From Escherichia phage phiLLS: a DNA stretch of 64,000 nt. The stretch lies in the sequence record NC_047822.1. One strand, given 5' to 3'. A program made the position numbers and the translations under genes. Each line of letters begins with the position of its first letter. Within the stretch, counting starts at the first letter, position 1. The notes beneath the pieces were generated by a model, which saw only the letters and a program-made list of their open reading frames with translations, ran no database searches and was not told the origin of the DNA. Shown in pieces: positions 8,750-43,001 of this stretch.

Positions 8750-9388
8750 ATGACTACTCGTATTTCTAAAACTCGCGCTCTAGCAACTATCAAATCTCTG
8801 GAAGCTAAAATCCGTAAAGCTACTGAACAGCAGCTTCTGATCGCTGTTGGTGAAGGTAAGGATAAAAACCAGGTTGTAGTTGGCGCTGCAATCGAAGTAG
8901 CTGATCTGTCTACTCGTATTAAGACTGATTTCCAGTCTCTGCTGGATATGATGTCCCAGCGTGATTGTATCAAAGCTGCTCTGATTAAAAGCAATGCGGA
9001 AACAATCGTTGAGATTGGCTCTCGTAAGATGACTGTTGCGGAAGCAATTGAAGCTAAGCGTTCTATGGAACTTAAAGCCCAATTGCTGGCTAACATGCGT
9101 AAGCAGTTCCATGCCGCTACGGTTAAGTTTAATACGCAGAAAGCACAGTTTGATGCTAAATATGAGCGTTTGCAGGATAGCATGGCTACCCGCGATAAGA
9201 AAACTTCCGAAGATGAAGTTAAAATGCAGCTCAACCTGCTGGAACTCAAGAATACTCCATTCTTGATTGATCCGCTGGAACTGGAAAAGCTGATTAAGCA
9301 GCATGACGAGGAATACCAGGACTTTGCAACAAATGTTGACTTTGTTCTGTCCGAGTCTAACGCCTCTACCTTCATTGAAGTAGAGTAA
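8750..9388 (+). CDS. Hypothetical protein
   Basis: 212-aa ORF with RBS; helical; the overlapping minus-strand ORFs are judged spurious. Confidence 0.55.
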   Translation: MTTRISKTRALATIKSLEAKIRKATEQQLLIAVGEGKDKNQVVVGAAIEVADLSTRIKTDFQSLLDMMSQRDCIKAALIKSNAETIVEIGSRKMTVAEAIEAKRSMELKAQLLANMRKQFHAATVKFNTQKAQFDAKYERLQDSMATRDKKTSEDEVKMQLNLLELKNTPFLIDPLELEKLIKQHDEEYQDFATNVDFVLSESNASTFIEVE

Positions 9389-9771
9389 TAATTTAAAAGC
9401 TAGTAAATCGGTAGACGAAAGCCCAAGCATCTTACCTCGCAGCAGCGGTTGAAATACGAGGTTAAATAAGACCGCTGACCATACTATAAAATATAATCTA
9501 TTGGAGATTATGTTTATTACACCAGCCTTTTAAGCTGACACGTAAGAACAAAGCGTCGTTGATATTACCGACACAACTTCAAAGATCAACATTTAAGTAT
9601 GAAAGCTGAAAAGTTTAAAGAACTCAAACTTCTAAACTTCTAAAGCTAAAAGATGCAAAGTATTCGTTGATGATTCAAACCCTAGATCAAAGGTACATGG
9701 CTCATAAGATATGGCCTGTGGCGCCTCTAGGCTGTTTATCGGTTTACTAGTTTCACAATTTAAAAATGTAT

Positions 9772-9800
9772 TTGCTAATTTACTAAGTTATCTGTATAAT
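9772..9800 (+). promoter_or_regulatory. T5-type early promoter
   Basis: -35 TTGCTA, 17-bp spacer, -10 TATAAT. Confidence 0.55.
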
Positions 9801-9830
9801 ATATTTTTAAATTGATGAAACGAGGCTATT

Positions 9831-10148
9831 ATGACTTTTCATATTTTGATTGATGATGTGCGTAATCTTCACGGAATGGACATTATCATTCGAACCCCAG
9901 AAGCCGCTGTCGAGTTTCTGAATAAAACTGATACCACAGGCCACTTCGTTTATATGGATAATGACTTGGCTGTAGATGGTATGGAAGGTTATCAAATTCT
10001 TCGTTTACTCTTAGAATTTGGGCAGAGACCAAAGAAAGTGGTACTAGTAACCTCGAACCCAGTAGCTAAGCAACATATGCGTAATGATTTGCTTGACTTA
10101 GGGTACAAAGAAAGCCCCAATCGTGTTGAATATGATTGGCAGGAGTAA
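9831..10148 (+). CDS. Hypothetical protein
   Basis: 105-aa ORF with RBS after promoter. Confidence 0.5.
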   Translation: MTFHILIDDVRNLHGMDIIIRTPEAAVEFLNKTDTTGHFVYMDNDLAVDGMEGYQILRLLLEFGQRPKKVVLVTSNPVAKQHMRNDLLDLGYKESPNRVEYDWQE

Positions 10149-10153
10149 AAAGA

Positions 10154-40521: not shown

Positions 40522-41406
40522 ATGTATAACTTTAAAGATAAACTAAGACAAAATGCTGGTAAAACAAAACCTAAAGAGAACAATAATGTTCCTAATGCCA
40601 AAGTATTATCATTTCCAGAACTGTCTCAAGAAGAAAAAGATAAGTTAGCATTTATGTTTGATGCCCTTCTAGAGCTAAATGGACGTTTATATTCCTCACT
40701 CAATATTAATGAGAAACGTTTAGTAGAGATGTTTTGTAAGCGTTATCAAGTTACTTCAAAGGGCAATTCTTATAAAGAAGGTGAGAAAGCATTCACAGTC
40801 TTAAAGATTAGCGCATATGCACATCGTTTCTTAGTTTATGGGTTACAGATGGAATACTTCACCATCCCATCATTTAGCTCTTTCCATATCTTTGAAGATG
40901 AACGAATGAATATTGATGATCTCTATGGGGATACATACAAATACTCAGGAAGTCCATTCCATGATGCATTAAGGAGTTACCCAACTAACTATTTACCAGT
41001 TAGGGCATCACAAGGTAAAGCTAGCATCTTCGCTGTTTACTCAGGATCTAAAGCATCGGATCTAGAAACTTATATATTTAAAGAGCGTAAATCTGTGCTT
41101 CCAGATGAAGCATTGTATAACAATCCATTGCTTCCAGAAAAAGAACCAGAAAAAGTTGATGTAACCCCACCAATCCCATCTGATTCTCAGTATTTAATTT
41201 ATGAGAAACAAGTTAAGTTATCCCTAGAAATTGGGTTAGTTACACCGCTTGCTGCAGCGTTCATAAATAGATACCTAGAAATCCCAGAAGAGTTCCACCA
41301 ACGTTATAGTACGAATGTTCAGATAACGGATGAACTAATTGCGTTAGCAAAAGATACACCTACAGATACTGAGGCGTATCAAAAAGCATACCAAGAGTTA
41401 CTGTAA
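40522..41406 (+). CDS. Hypothetical protein
   Basis: 294-aa ORF with RBS; last + strand CDS before the repeat region. Confidence 0.55.
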   Translation: MYNFKDKLRQNAGKTKPKENNNVPNAKVLSFPELSQEEKDKLAFMFDALLELNGRLYSSLNINEKRLVEMFCKRYQVTSKGNSYKEGEKAFTVLKISAYAHRFLVYGLQMEYFTIPSFSSFHIFEDERMNIDDLYGDTYKYSGSPFHDALRSYPTNYLPVRASQGKASIFAVYSGSKASDLETYIFKERKSVLPDEALYNNPLLPEKEPEKVDVTPPIPSDSQYLIYEKQVKLSLEIGLVTPLAAAFINRYLEIPEEFHQRYSTNVQITDELIALAKDTPTDTEAYQKAYQELL

Positions 41407-41918
41407 GATCCTGCATGTCTCGGTGCACAATACCTGTACCGAGACAGAAATACAAACTCTCGTTGACAGATAGCTAAATGTATGTTATCATAACTCTATG
41501 AGTTAATAGAATTAACCATTTAGAGTTGCCACACAGAAGGTGTGGTGGTTCAGTAATTTAAAATTACTAACTTGTAGCGGAGGATACGGAGCGACAGGAC
41601 AAGTTAATAAGTAATTTAATATAAATTGCTAGAAACATCACGAGACCTTCTGGCGGGGGCAAAGCTCTATATGAGAACCCTGGGGGATCTTATATTTAAA
41701 ATAAAAGTAAAACTTTTGACCACATAATTTACATTCAAGATGATACACCTGTTGCCGCTCTTCTGTTAGGATGGCACAACACTTTCCTAGAAACTCCAGA
41801 GTTCTCACGAGATACCACTCTTTCTAGGAACATATACTAGGCGGTTAATACAGGGCGGTTATAGGGAGGGCGGTTATTTCTAGAAGACATTTTTTGAAAA
41901 CACATTTCCAGAAATTAC

Positions 41919-42519
41919 TGTCGGATTTGCACACTGATATTCTAGAAATTTATGGTAGGATTTGCACAAATGCCTAAGTTTTTAGGAACTCTTACTCTCC
42001 TGAAAATAGCAGCATTATTTCGGGCCGAAGGCCCATGATTGCCTGAGTTTTTAGAGCCACAGAAATTTTCACTTGTCAAGCTATTTTGCCCCATTTTGCT
42101 AATAAAATTTCGCTTTTTCTGCACCTATCTCAAATTAACCCAAGTTATCTCACATCTCCTCCAAAATCCCCGCGGATCAGGTGCTCCGCACCAAACATGC
42201 GCTACATCCTTCTAGCCCCCAAATTTCTCTCACTCTCTCATCTTCTCCTCAAACCCACACAATCACACACCCTCCAATCGAAGTCACAAAAATCTTGTCG
42301 GATTCGCACATCTTAATCCTAGAAAAACCGTGTCGGATTTGCACATACTCCACAGGATTGATGCGCAGCATCGGATTGCTGGAGTTTTTGGAAAAATTCA
42401 TTGTCGGATTTGCACACTATAAAAATTTTTCGGGTCGGATTTGCACACTACCAAAAATTGTCGGATTTGCACATACGTGCCCGCACGTAACACCCGTGGA
42501 GCAATGTCGGATTTGCACA
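41919..42519. repeat. Array of at least 6 direct repeats TGTCGGATTTGCACA with degenerate copies
   Basis: Copies at 41919, 42332, 42402, 42435, 42459, 42505; variants at 41957 and 42296; irregular spacing. Confidence 0.8.
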
Positions 42520-42520
42520 A

Positions 42521-42546
42521 AAGCGCAGGGCAATTGCCCTGCGCTA
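42521..42546. repeat. Perfect palindrome agcgcagggcaattgccctgcgct
   Basis: 11-bp arms around a central AATT. Confidence 0.8.
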
Positions 42547-42770
42547 AATACGAATGATAATAAGAATCATTCTCATTTAAAAAGCGGAATGAGAATGATA
42601 ATAATTCGCATTTAGAAAGTGAAATGAGAATCAATCTCATTTAAGAAAGGGAATGAGAACTATTCAAAAAGTGAAATGATTCTCATTTAGGAAAGGAAAT
42701 GATTATCGGTTAGATAGTGGAATGCGAATGATAATGATTTGCATTTAAGAATGGAAGTGAGAAACACTGT
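42547..42770. repeat. Array of about 8 imperfect AT-rich palindromic units (Fur-box-like)
   Basis: Units contain AATGATAAT / GATAATGAT / ATTCTCATT; spacing 21-40 bp, each ending CATTTAAGAAAG-like. Confidence 0.7.
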
Positions 42771-42845
42771 TATTTAAGTTATCCACAGACTTATCAACAG
42801 CACGATTTGACTTGACAGAATCCTAGCCATTTTGAAGCGTTATTA

Positions 42846-42886
42846 ACAGACTTATCCACAGCTTATCCTACTGTATAAATATACAG
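42846..42886. repeat. Inverted repeat, left arm (41 bp, contains a DnaA-box-like TTATCCACA)
   Basis: 40/41 match to the reverse complement of 45894-45934. Confidence 0.85.
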
Positions 42887-43001
42887 TATTCCTACGTAGT
42901 GAATAATTCTAATATACCGCTAAAACGTCCTGAATCGCATTCTAACGCGTTTAATTTTGGTGGGGATACTAAAACAAGGGGGTATTTAACTGGAGGCATG
43001 G

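What the first reader, a model, noticed from the sequence alone, without database searches (positions are those of the whole stretch)
42547..42770. Array of Fur-box-like palindromes
Units such as gcgAATGATAATGATttgcatt and cgAATGATAATaagAATCATTctc contain the GATAATGAT core of the enterobacterial Fur box and its NATWAT hexamer periodicity. Several such sites side by side could bind host Fur, or a phage protein with similar specificity. That would be notable for a phage family whose archetype uses an iron-regulated outer-membrane receptor.
Basis: inference. Interest (0 to 1): 0.55.

Follow-up and report, generated by a model that had tools for sequence, protein, structure and literature searches.

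The report
Fur-box array in T5 injection-stop region
A 224-base block of repeats in the non-coding "injection stop" region of a T5-like phage matches the binding site of the bacterial iron regulator Fur more densely than any E. coli Fur-controlled promoter I checked, so host Fur becomes a testable candidate factor in a phage control region whose mechanism has been unknown for decades.

Summary
Window 42547-42770 holds seven tandem units (periods 35, 35, 29, 23, 23, 23 and 37 bp). Each unit is a Fur-box-type hexamer palindrome followed by an 11-bp purine-rich spacer.

I built a Fur matrix from 16 E. coli K-12 Fur-regulated promoters. With it, the block holds the two best hits of the whole 64 kb (20.8 and 19.3 bits) and 7 hits of at least 12 bits. 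Hits come in sets spaced exactly 6 bp apart. Neither 5000 composition-matched shuffles nor column-permuted matrices reproduce this.

The block is not new as sequence. It is the direct-repeat C / palindrome E-I block of the T5 "injection stop signal" region. It lies inside the terminal repeat, about 0.5 kb from the repeat boundary, between paired DnaA boxes and a nick-bearing palindrome followed by iteron-like repeats. The flanking genes converge on it and it contains no strong promoter.

I found no paper reading it as Fur boxes. The same units occur in unrelated ~150-kb myoviruses, and the exact 19-mer sits upstream of iron-uptake genes in many bacteria.

Against an obligatory Fur role, Vibrio T5-like phages carry a different, non-Fur-like repeat at the same position.

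Best reading (0.45): a multi-dimer docking array for host Fur with an architectural role. Binding itself is untested.

The parts
42547..42770 (.). The whole array as flagged: seven tandem units of Fur-box-like palindrome plus purine-rich spacer. It corresponds to T5 AY587007 ~9463-9650 (direct repeat C copies 1-4, palindromes E-I; Davison's DRE1/DRE2).
42553..42577 (.). Unit 1, a 25-mer AATGATAATAAGAATCATTCTCATT with F-F-x-R hexamer layout. Fur matrix hits at 42550/42556/42562 score 11.0/20.8/12.1 bits.
42588..42612 (.). Unit 2, a 25-mer AATGAGAATGATAATAATTCGCATT. Hits at 42585/42591/42597 score 8.6/19.3/12.3 bits.
42623..42641 (.). Unit 3, a 19-mer AATGAGAATCAATCTCATT with 9-bp arms and a 1-bp centre. 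Hits at 42620/42626 score 13.3/11.6 bits.
42652..42710 (.). Units 4-6, short and degenerate, at a 23-bp period: AATGAGAACTATTC, AATGATTCTCATT and AATGATTATCGGT. Fur scores are 8.6-10.6 bits.
42721..42745 (.). Unit 7, a 25-mer AATGCGAATGATAATGATTTGCATT. Hits at 42724/42730 score 16.9/16.1 bits.
42754..42778 (+). Conserved element GAAGTGAGAAACACTGTTATTTAAG between the array and the DnaA boxes. It is near-invariant in T5, BF23, EPS7 and IMG/VR relatives. The core AGTGAGAAACACT also occurs in Sugarland and Proteus phage 1.
42779..42860 (+). Two pairs of DnaA-type boxes, each pair separated by 3 bp: TTATCCACA 42779 with TTATCAACA 42791, and TTATTAACA 42840 with TTATCCACA 42852. This is T5 IRD'-spacer-IRC'.
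42522..42545 (.). Perfect 24-bp G+C-rich palindrome AGCGCAGGGCAATTGCCCTGCGCT (T5 palindrome J). In T5 the major 7.9% single-strand nick is annotated here.
   Evidence: (I11)
41919..42526 (+). Eight copies of the iteron-like repeat TGTCGGATTTGCACA (T5 direct repeat D), at 41919, 41954, 42296, 42331, 42402, 42434, 42459 and 42505. They straddle the terminal-repeat boundary.
   Evidence: (D2, D4)
42054..42054 (.). Approximate inner boundary of the terminal repeat, which is also the physical right end of virion DNA in the other copy. It lies 493 bp from the array.
   Evidence: BF23 repeat_region mapping; NBSal003 record start

Best explanation
The block is the repeat/palindrome core of the T5-type injection-stop / terminal-repeat control region. 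By sequence it is an array of high-affinity operators for the host iron regulator Fur.

Anatomy (shown): each unit is built from hexamers with AAT or ATT invariant every 6 bp. The layouts are GNNAAT-GATAAT-N-ATTNNC (the classical F-F-x-R 19-mer) or GAGAAT-C-ATTCTC (6-1-6 / 7-1-7). Each unit is followed by an 11-bp purine-rich spacer, TTTAARAAGYGR.

Mechanism (inferred):
- In an iron-replete cell, roughly 8-12 dimers of Fe-Fur would coat about 200 bp of the first-step-transfer DNA as soon as it enters the cell. They would also coat every later copy of either terminal repeat.
- The role is architectural and cis-acting, not promoter control. The array has no strong promoter and its flanking genes converge on it. 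It sits between paired DnaA boxes and a nick-bearing palindrome followed by iteron-like repeats, 0.5 kb from the repeat boundary and physical DNA end.
- Fur would act as a host co-factor of a nucleoprotein complex. That complex would take part in the pause and resumption of DNA transfer, or in processing or packaging of the repeat end.

Which of these processes is served is not resolved. How a cytoplasmic protein could halt incoming DNA is also unexplained.
For: - Matrix scores lie at the top of the range of validated E. coli sites, with 6-bp-spaced overlapping hits. This is the cluster signature described for Fur in PMC2189734.
- The array is denser than any of 14 E. coli Fur-regulated loci.
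- Shuffle and permuted-matrix controls fail to reproduce it.
By my own estimate, about 4 would be expected for uniform base composition. 106 of 121 sites lie outside ORFs of 200 aa or more.
- I took the nearest downstream ORF in the first 30 of those loci, in numeric order. They include TonB-dependent receptors x2, FTR1 x2, FeoA, an Fe2+ transporter and Fur itself. They also include ZnuA, iron-type binding proteins x2, an ECF sigma factor, an esterase and a multicopper oxidase.
- The per-position conservation of phage units tracks the information profile of the Fur matrix (Spearman 0.83).
- 28 natural variants of the 25-mer keep a mean score of 17.4 bits. Random mutants with the same number of changes, passed through the same arm filter, average 11.3 bits. 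The natural variant is higher in 26 of 28 cases (Wilcoxon p=1e-7).
- The same units occur as 3-4-unit arrays with a 29-bp period in unrelated Phapecoctavirus and Certrevirus genomes. There they sit next to lineage-specific repeats. Those genomes showed no homologue of the T5 DNA-binding protein A2.
- The array is kept, with 3-12 units, in Tequintavirus, Epseptimavirus and Sugarlandvirus.
- The window encodes no Fur homologue.
Against: - No binding data exist.
- At the same position Vibrio phage D30 has a different repeat with a maximum Fur score of 4.8 bits.
- Enterobacter phage KKP_3711 has only two units, both below 12 bits.
- Proteus phage 1 has a 46-bp-period variant scoring 12.7-15.8 bits.
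- So the array changes with phage lineage, although Fur specificity is conserved across these hosts. This fits a co-evolving phage protein better.
- The conserved purine-rich spacer is not part of any Fur box.
- T5 infects best when its receptor FhuA is derepressed, which is when Fur is largely iron-free and not DNA-bound.
- The array is not at a promoter, the usual place for Fur sites.
Confidence: 0.45

Rival explanations
1. The units are binding sites for a phage-encoded protein, such as the essential pre-early DNA-binding protein A2 or an unidentified one. The resemblance to Fur boxes would be convergence on an AT-rich hexamer palindrome, or deliberate competition with Fur.
For: The array sequence changes with phage lineage. 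It is strong in Escherichia, Salmonella and Klebsiella phages, reduced in Enterobacter phage KKP_3711 (A2 54% identical), altered in Proteus phage 1 (A2 39%) and replaced in Vibrio phage D30 (A2 42%). A2 is annotated as a DNA-binding protein (phrog_1725; PF26822). It is required for second-step transfer (abstract of 10.1101/866236). The conserved 11-bp spacer suggests a constraint beyond Fur.
Against: Nearly identical units occur in Phapecoctavirus and Certrevirus genomes, where tblastn found no A2 homologue. All A2 hits lie in T5-like genomes. Natural unit variants drift within Fur-box sequence space, and some score higher than the family consensus. The identical 19-mer serves iron regulons in bacteria. 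The A2 model (pLDDT 84.8) has no significant structural match, so nothing links it to this motif.
Confidence: 0.3
2. The block acts through DNA structure rather than a sequence-specific protein. Candidates are an AT-rich unwinding element beside iterons and DnaA boxes (origin-like), bent DNA, or hairpins and cruciforms formed by the palindromes.
For: The block is the local G+C minimum (30% against 39% for the window). As single-stranded DNA it folds far better than shuffles (z = -6.4). The neighbourhood of iteron-like repeats plus paired DnaA boxes resembles plasmid-type origins. The Vibrio counterpart is also an AT-rich repeat array (22% G+C).
Against: AT-richness and palindromy do not explain conservation of exactly the Fur-critical positions. 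They also do not explain the same 19-25-mers in unrelated phages and in bacterial iron operators. T5 replication origins were mapped near the genome centre, according to 10.1101/866236.
Confidence: 0.13
3. The array is a conventional Fur operator. It would control a promoter or a non-coding transcript inside the non-coding region, making some phage transcription iron-dependent.
For: Weak promoter-like matches (9/12) overlap the array. An 11/12 match with an extended -10 points into the region from 41463-41491. In environmental phage contigs L203 and L221 the same units flank strong TTGACA/TGGTATAAT promoters. In EPS7 and TrudiRoth a separate 23.6-bit site lies in an intergenic stretch upstream of a pre-early gene.
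Against: The flanking genes converge on the region and no ORF follows the array. No promoter inside it scores above 9/12. No RNA family matches. The array is about 1 kb from the 41463 promoter.
Confidence: 0.08
4. The resemblance is a chance product of AT-rich repetitive sequence.
For: The units are copies of each other, so one chance resemblance is multiplied. Fur boxes are AT-rich and low in information.
Against: See (controls; variants keep the score; the same sequence is used at bacterial iron genes).
Confidence: 0.02

Closest known systems
Fur binding-site clusters of E. coli iron-uptake promoters (for example fepDGC-entS, fhuF, iucA; model of Chen et al. 2007, PMC2189734)
   Same: The 19-bp consensus, the hexamer F-F-x-R / 7-1-7 layout and overlapping sites exactly 6 bp apart are shared. 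Scores fall in the range of footprinted sites, and the same GAGAAT/ATTCTC variants occur at fhuA, ryhB, fecI and feoA.
   Different: There are seven phased units with a constant spacer rather than one or two boxes, giving 7 strong hits per 224 bp against at most 3. The array is not at a promoter. It lies on a virulent phage genome inside a terminal repeat. Binding is untested.
Phage T5 injection stop signal region (Repeat Region 3): direct repeat C copies 1-4, palindromes E-I, DRE1/DRE2 (Wang et al. 2005 annotation in AY587007; Davison 2020, bioRxiv 10.1101/866236)
   Same: It is the orthologous sequence, with the same position, the same flanks and the same order of elements. Davison places the calculated first-step-transfer shear point (9618) inside this block.
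   Different: The literature describes it only as repeats and palindromes and proposes DnaA at the neighbouring boxes. Fur is not mentioned. As of 2023, functional studies were said to be lacking (PMC10644984).
Host-factor sites in phage cis-acting regions, such as the IHF site I1 beside the terminase-binding R repeats in lambda cosB, or DnaA/IHF sites beside iterons in plasmid origins (own knowledge)
   Same: Element-specific repeats (here TGTCGGATTTGCACA) sit next to sites for an abundant host DNA-binding protein, close to a DNA end or cut site.
   Different: The host factor would be Fur, which is not known in such a role. No terminase or initiator binding has been shown for the adjacent repeats.
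Fur boxes carried by temperate phages in front of cargo genes (sitABCD on lambdoid phages, PMC6969025; stx1, own knowledge)
   Same: A host Fur operator carried on phage DNA.
   Different: Those are single operators at promoters of cargo genes on prophages. Here an array lies in a promoter-less control region of a virulent phage.

Membership tests
Fur box / Fur binding-site cluster | Match to the 19-bp consensus GATAATGATAATCATTATC, with a matrix score within the range of validated sites | tested here: met
   Scores of 20.8, 19.3, 16.9 and 16.1 bits, against a leave-one-out median of 15.6 for 16 E. coli sites. Matches of 16/19, 15/19 and 14/19.
Fur box / Fur binding-site cluster | Hexamer (NATWAT) architecture: F-F-x-R, or 7-1-7 inverted repeat | tested here: met
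   The unit consensus is AAT-GCG-AAT-GAT-AAT-G-ATT-CGC-ATT, with AAT/ATT invariant every 6 bp. Its information profile correlates with the Fur matrix (rho = 0.83).
Fur box / Fur binding-site cluster | Overlapping sites separated by exactly 3 or 6 bp (Chen et al. 2007) | tested here: met
   42550/56/62, 42585/91/97, 42620/26 and 42724/30. The same holds in T5, BF23, anhysbys and DU_PP_I.
Fur box / Fur binding-site cluster | Overlaps the promoter of an iron-responsive gene | tested here: not met
   The flanking genes are convergent, no promoter scores above 9/12 and no downstream ORF exists.
Fur box / Fur binding-site cluster | Bound by metal-loaded Fur (footprint, gel shift, ChIP, titration assay) | not testable with these tools
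   Indirect evidence only: the exact 19-mer lies upstream of iron-uptake genes in diverse bacteria.
T5 injection-stop-signal repeat block (DRC / palE-I / DRE) | Sequence orthology to T5 ~9463-9650 | tested here: met
   Alignment A1 has 84% mean column identity over the region. blastn gives 83% identity to AY543070 9519-9716, annotated 'injection stop signal (iss)' (H84).
T5 injection-stop-signal repeat block (DRC / palE-I / DRE) | Position inside the terminal repeat, after the last pre-early gene. It lies between the paired DnaA boxes (IRD'-spacer-IRC') and palindrome J with its nick, followed by the DRD repeats. | tested here: met
T5 injection-stop-signal repeat block (DRC / palE-I / DRE) | Acts in cis to halt DNA transfer at ~8% | not testable with these tools
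   Even for T5 this rests on shear mapping. Functional dissection was reported lacking (PMC10644984).
Iteron/DnaA-box replication origin with an AT-rich unwinding element | Iterons, DnaA boxes and an adjacent AT-rich repeat block | tested here: met
   Eight DRD copies, four DnaA-type boxes and a 30% G+C array.
Iteron/DnaA-box replication origin with an AT-rich unwinding element | Replication starts here | not testable with these tools
   Davison cites mapping of T5 origins near the genome centre, which argues against this.

The most novel reading that the evidence does not exclude
Several unrelated families of virulent enterobacterial phages (T5-like siphoviruses, Phapecoctavirus, Certrevirus) have independently acquired or exchanged arrays of host Fur operators. 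These arrays sit in promoter-poor non-coding control regions, next to phage-specific iterons. Fur, an abundant metal-sensing DNA binder, would serve as an architectural co-factor. In T5 it would be part of the long-sought host component of the injection-stop / terminal-repeat complex, so that DNA transfer or end processing is coupled to the iron state of the host.
Probability: 0.25. Interest if true: 0.8.

Novelty: new variant of a known kind. Interest (0 to 1): 0.6.

Why it matters
The T5 two-step DNA transfer has been known since the 1960s, yet the nature of the stop signal is still open. The only specific host factor proposed so far is DnaA, at the neighbouring boxes. Reading the adjacent, highly conserved repeat block as about ten high-affinity Fur sites names a second candidate. 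That candidate is abundant, already present before infection, and testable with standard reagents: purified Fur, fur-deleted hosts and iron chelation.

If Fur binds and matters, this would be a new use of a metal regulator as a structural co-factor on phage DNA. It would also give a route by which iron availability influences infection by a widely used phage group. The same module in unrelated ~150-kb myoviruses suggests the phenomenon is not confined to T5.

If Fur does not bind, the array still defines the recognition sequence of whatever phage protein acts there.

Tried and rejected
- The supplementary site list of Chen et al. 2007 is not held, so I built the Fur matrix myself from MG1655 promoters.
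- Davison 2015 could not be read.
- Rfam scans of the region and of the myovirus loci returned only sub-threshold noise.
- The promoter and terminator scan found no strong promoter in the array.
- A search of plasmids gave no match.
- I looked for a phage Fur-like protein and found none. Pfam and PHROGs on ten pre-early ORFs showed no Fur family, and tblastn of E. coli Fur against the window and related loci gave nothing.
- The A2 structure prediction (pLDDT 84.8) and PDB fold search gave no match below E = 0.6. Only weak helix-turn-helix-like hints appeared, so this does not help decide whether A2 reads the motif.
- An A2 hit on a 148.7-kb contig turned out to be a poorly assembled T5-like genome, not a myovirus.
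- Other strong Fur-matrix hits in the window lie inside ORFs: 45467, 50263 and 51109/51115. I did not treat them as part of the feature.
- The idea that the array titrates Fur to derepress host genes was rejected on established knowledge. T5 degrades host DNA and shuts off host transcription within minutes, and a single entering copy offers about ten sites against thousands of Fur molecules.
- The link to FhuA use was rejected because BtuB-using BF23 has the same array.

Full report
**What the window is.** The region around the finding is 97% identical to Tequintavirus NBSal003 and about 90% identical to many Salmonella and Escherichia T5-like phages. The window runs in the reverse of the canonical T5 orientation.

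The finding lies in a stretch of about 1.1 kb (41810-42890) with no convincing ORF. A 294-aa gene on the + strand (40522-41406), corresponding by position and length to T5.018, lies to its left. The last pre-early genes, on the - strand from 43140, lie to its right. The flanking genes therefore converge on the stretch.

In T5 record AY543070 the orthologous stretch is annotated "injection stop signal (iss)", 9140-10149, inside the left terminal repeat. Record AY587007 itemises its repeats and palindromes.

A three-way alignment places window 42547-42770 on T5 ~9463-9650. That covers direct repeat C copies 1-4 and palindromes E-I, the block Davison calls DRE1/DRE2. Davison places the calculated first-step-transfer shear point (9618) inside it (bioRxiv 10.1101/866236).

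The terminal-repeat boundary maps to about window 42054. Two sources agree on this: the BF23 repeat annotation, and the fact that the NBSal003 record starts 493 bp before its copy of the array.

**Anatomy.** There are seven tandem units with start-to-start spacings of 35, 35, 29, 23, 23, 23 and 37 bp.

- Each unit begins with AATG.
- Each carries inverted arms of the type AATGNGAAT / ATTCNCATT, separated by 1 or 7 bp. Units 4-6 are truncated.
- Each ends in a purine-rich spacer, TTTAARAAGYGR.
- Unit lengths differ by multiples of 6 bp.

Across 16 T5-like arrays and 3 myovirus arrays the consensus of the long unit is AAT-GCG-AAT-GAT-AAT-G-ATT-CGC-ATT. AAT or ATT is invariant every 6 bp and the triplets between them vary. 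This is the F-F-x-R hexamer layout of the classical Fur box. The 19-mer unit AATGAGAAT-C-ATTCTCATT is a 6-1-6 / 7-1-7 site.

Order of flanking elements on the window + strand:

- Eight copies of TGTCGGATTTGCACA (41919-42526), straddling the repeat boundary.
- A perfect 24-bp G+C-rich palindrome (42522-42545). In T5 the major 7.9% nick is annotated here.
- The array itself.
- A near-invariant element, GAAGTGAGAAACACTGTTATTTAAG (42754-42778).
- Two pairs of DnaA-type boxes (42779-42860).

**Is it more Fur-like than chance?** The published site lists were not available. I therefore fetched 16 Fur-regulated promoter regions of MG1655 and derived a symmetric 19-bp matrix by expectation-maximisation seeded with the consensus. 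It recovers known operators such as fhuA, ryhB, fhuF, fepB-entC, sodA and tonB. Leave-one-out scores run from 5.2 to 22.4 bits, with a median of 15.6.

Results on the 64-kb window:

- The two best hits of the whole window are in the finding: 42556 at 20.8 bits and 42591 at 19.3 bits.
- Four of the seven hits of at least 16 bits are in the finding.
- Seven of the nineteen hits of at least 12 bits are in the finding.
- Hits come in sets exactly 6 bp apart, the signature of Fur clusters (PMC2189734).

Controls:

| Control | Result |
|---|---|
| 5000 dinucleotide-preserving shuffles of the 224 bp | 3 reach the observed maximum; 0 reach 7 hits of at least 12 bits (mean 0.11) |
| 200 shuffles of the whole window | mean 0.05 hits of at least 19 bits, against 2 observed |
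| 5000 symmetric column-permuted matrices | 2 reach 7 hits |
| 14 E. coli Fur-regulated loci | none has more than 3 hits of at least 12 bits per 224 bp |

The array's summed score (21.4) equals that of the best E. coli promoters. The one caveat is that the units are paralogous copies, not independent events.

By my own calculation, about 4 would be expected for uniform base composition.

Of 121 sites, 106 lie outside ORFs of 200 aa or more. I took the nearest downstream ORF for the first 30 loci in numeric order, which avoids choosing favourable cases. Pfam gave the following:

- Clearly iron-linked by family name: TonB-dependent receptor or plug x2, FTR1 iron permease x2, FeoA, Fe2+ transport protein, and Fur itself.
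- Probably metal-uptake related: ZnuA, iron-type solute-binding proteins x2, an ECF sigma factor, an esterase and a multicopper oxidase.
- Porins (Porin_O_P) x2, with no evident link to metal uptake.

This exact sequence therefore serves as an iron-regulon operator across bacteria.

**Constraint within the phage family.** Arrays of 3-12 units are present in Tequintavirus, Epseptimavirus and Sugarlandvirus, with maximum scores of 17-23 bits.

The per-position conservation of the units follows the information profile of the E. coli matrix (Spearman 0.83).

Twenty-eight natural variants of the 25-mer average 17.4 bits. Several that differ from the family consensus at 5-7 positions score higher than the consensus itself. 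Random mutants with the same number of changes, passed through the same arm filter, average 11.3 bits. The natural variant is higher in 26 of 28 cases (p=1e-7). Variation among units therefore stays within Fur-box sequence space.

**Unrelated phages.** A sensitive blastn of the array also hits genomes of about 145-152 kb from other groups. These are Phapecoctavirus (anhysbys, nepoznato and others), Certrevirus (Pectobacterium DU_PP_I), Klebsiella phage ZCKP1 and Pseudomonas phage PsgM04F.

In anhysbys, DU_PP_I and PsgM04F, three or four units lie in a long non-coding stretch. Their period is 29 bp where I measured it (anhysbys and DU_PP_I). They sit beside direct repeats that differ between lineages. 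They score up to 22.2 bits, again in pairs 6 bp apart.

Homologues of the T5 DNA-binding protein A2 were found only in T5-like genomes.

Environmental viral contigs show further arrays, some next to strong promoters.

A motif shared by unrelated phages, each beside its own private repeats, is most simply read by a shared host protein.

**Evidence against an obligatory Fur role.** The positional homologue varies with phage lineage:

| Phage | A2 identity to window | Array at the same position |
|---|---|---|
| Enterobacter phage KKP_3711 | 54% | two units, both below 12 bits |
| Proteus phage 1 | 39% | 46-bp-period array, 12.7-15.8 bits |
| Vibrio phage D30 | 42% | different 22% G+C repeat, maximum 4.8 bits |

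Vibrio phage D30 keeps the iteron-like repeats, the G+C-rich palindrome and the DnaA boxes. Only the array is replaced. Fur specificity is conserved across these hosts, so this plasticity favours either a co-evolving phage protein or a role that other DNA can fill.

Other points against:

- The conserved purine-rich spacer is not explained by Fur.
- The array is also the local G+C minimum.
- As single-stranded DNA it folds much better than shuffles (z = -6.4), so a structural role cannot be excluded.

**Mechanism.**

- Shown: the sequence architecture, its statistical distinctness, its orthology to the T5 iss block, its conservation pattern and its occurrence elsewhere.
- Inferred: Fe-Fur coats the array, roughly 8-12 dimers judging from 13 positions of at least 8 bits. 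The role is architectural rather than promoter control, given convergent genes, no promoter above 9/12 and no RNA family match.
- Speculative: whether the complex serves the transfer pause or restart, or end processing and packaging 0.5 kb from the repeat boundary. I have no convincing account of how a cytoplasmic protein would stop incoming DNA.

I put Fur binding in vitro at about 0.8. I put "Fur binding is the selected function" at about 0.45.

**Literature.** No paper in the searchable library links T5 or its iss repeats to Fur. Davison's detailed analysis does not mention Fur. [quoted passage not shown] A 2023 paper states that functional studies are lacking. Heusterspreute 1987, Wang 2005 and Davison 2015 could not be read here, so prior mention cannot be fully excluded.

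**Verdict.** The block itself is a known feature of T5-like genomes. Its identity as a Fur-operator array, and the same module in unrelated myoviruses, appear to be new. Both make an old question directly testable.

Noticed in passing
L018 2490-2590 (Escherichia phage anhysbys NC_052656 ~43.4 kb); L019 2455-2580 (Pectobacterium phage DU_PP_I); L263 1995-2110 (Pseudomonas phage PsgM04F): Unrelated ~145-151 kb myoviruses (Phapecoctavirus, Certrevirus) carry 3-4 of the same Fur-box-like units in a long non-coding stretch. The period is 29 bp in anhysbys and DU_PP_I. Lineage-specific direct repeats precede the units. A G+C-rich hairpin follows them. After that comes a stretch of ~150-200 nt that, read by eye, looks similar between anhysbys and DU_PP_I (e.g. 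CTACCGGCGATC..ACCTTCC..GTTAGCCCCGC..CGCCGTGGGGTGGCG). It has no Rfam match and could be an undescribed RNA or protein-binding element.
   Followed up: partly
L264 7395-7625 (Vibrio phage D30 OZ196009): At the position of the Fur-like array, the Vibrio T5-like phage has about four copies of a ~60-bp, 22% G+C repeat (ATTATTGTATTATTATACTATTGTACGACAAA). It has no Fur likeness, while the flanking iteron-like repeats (TTTCGCACATAG), G+C-rich palindrome and DnaA boxes are kept.
   Followed up: partly
window 41919-42526: Eight copies of TGTCGGATTTGCACA (T5 direct repeat D) straddle the terminal-repeat boundary at ~42054. Two copies lie outside the repeat and six inside. This layout would suit recognition by terminase or another end-processing protein. 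The same repeat occurs in Sugarland, EPS7 and KKP_3711.
   Followed up: partly
window 42754-42778: GAAGTGAGAAACACTGTTATTTAAG is near-invariant in all Escherichia and Salmonella T5-likes examined. Its core AGTGAGAAACACT survives even in Proteus phage 1. It is more conserved than the array beside it, and its function is unknown.
   Followed up: no
window 42100-42290: A strongly strand-asymmetric, C-rich and G-poor stretch (GC skew -0.64) with short CT-rich repeats (TCTCCTCCAA, TCACACACCCTCCAA). It lies just inside the terminal-repeat boundary.
   Followed up: no
window 41463-41491 (+): A near-consensus sigma-70-type promoter (TTGACA, 17 bp, TG-TATCAT; 11/12). It lies just downstream of the 294-aa gene and points into the non-coding region. 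No ORF of 40 aa or more follows it on that strand.
   Followed up: no
window 45467, 50263, 51109/51115: Further strong Fur-matrix hits (18.9, 14.6 and 18.1/18.0 bits). All lie inside pre-early ORFs: the 334-aa DUF7566 gene, a 130-aa ORF and the 239-aa deoxynucleotidase-like gene. All are on the terminal-repeat side of the window.
   Followed up: partly
L261 2251-2281 (EPS7); L262 2188-2218 (TrudiRoth): Epseptimaviruses carry an additional triple overlapping Fur-like site (TAGAATGAGAATGATTATCAATATCATTGTA; 17.9/23.6/13.7 bits). It lies in an intergenic stretch ~130 bp upstream of a small pre-early gene and may be a genuine promoter operator.
   Followed up: no
L203 1809-1890; L221 1965-2010 and 2195-2225 (IMG/VR contigs): Environmental viral contigs carry two or three perfect copies of GAATGAGAATCATTCTCATTTG, or AAATGCGAATGAGAATCATTCGCATTT. 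These are interleaved with strong TTGACA / TGGTATAAT promoters. Of 120 viral loci holding the 19-mer, 19 have at least 3 separate Fur-like sites within 300 bp, and about half of those are not T5-like.
   Followed up: partly
window 41834-41877: Three copies of AGGCGGTTA / AGGGCGGTTAT, corresponding to T5 direct repeat A, lie just outside the terminal repeat.
   Followed up: no
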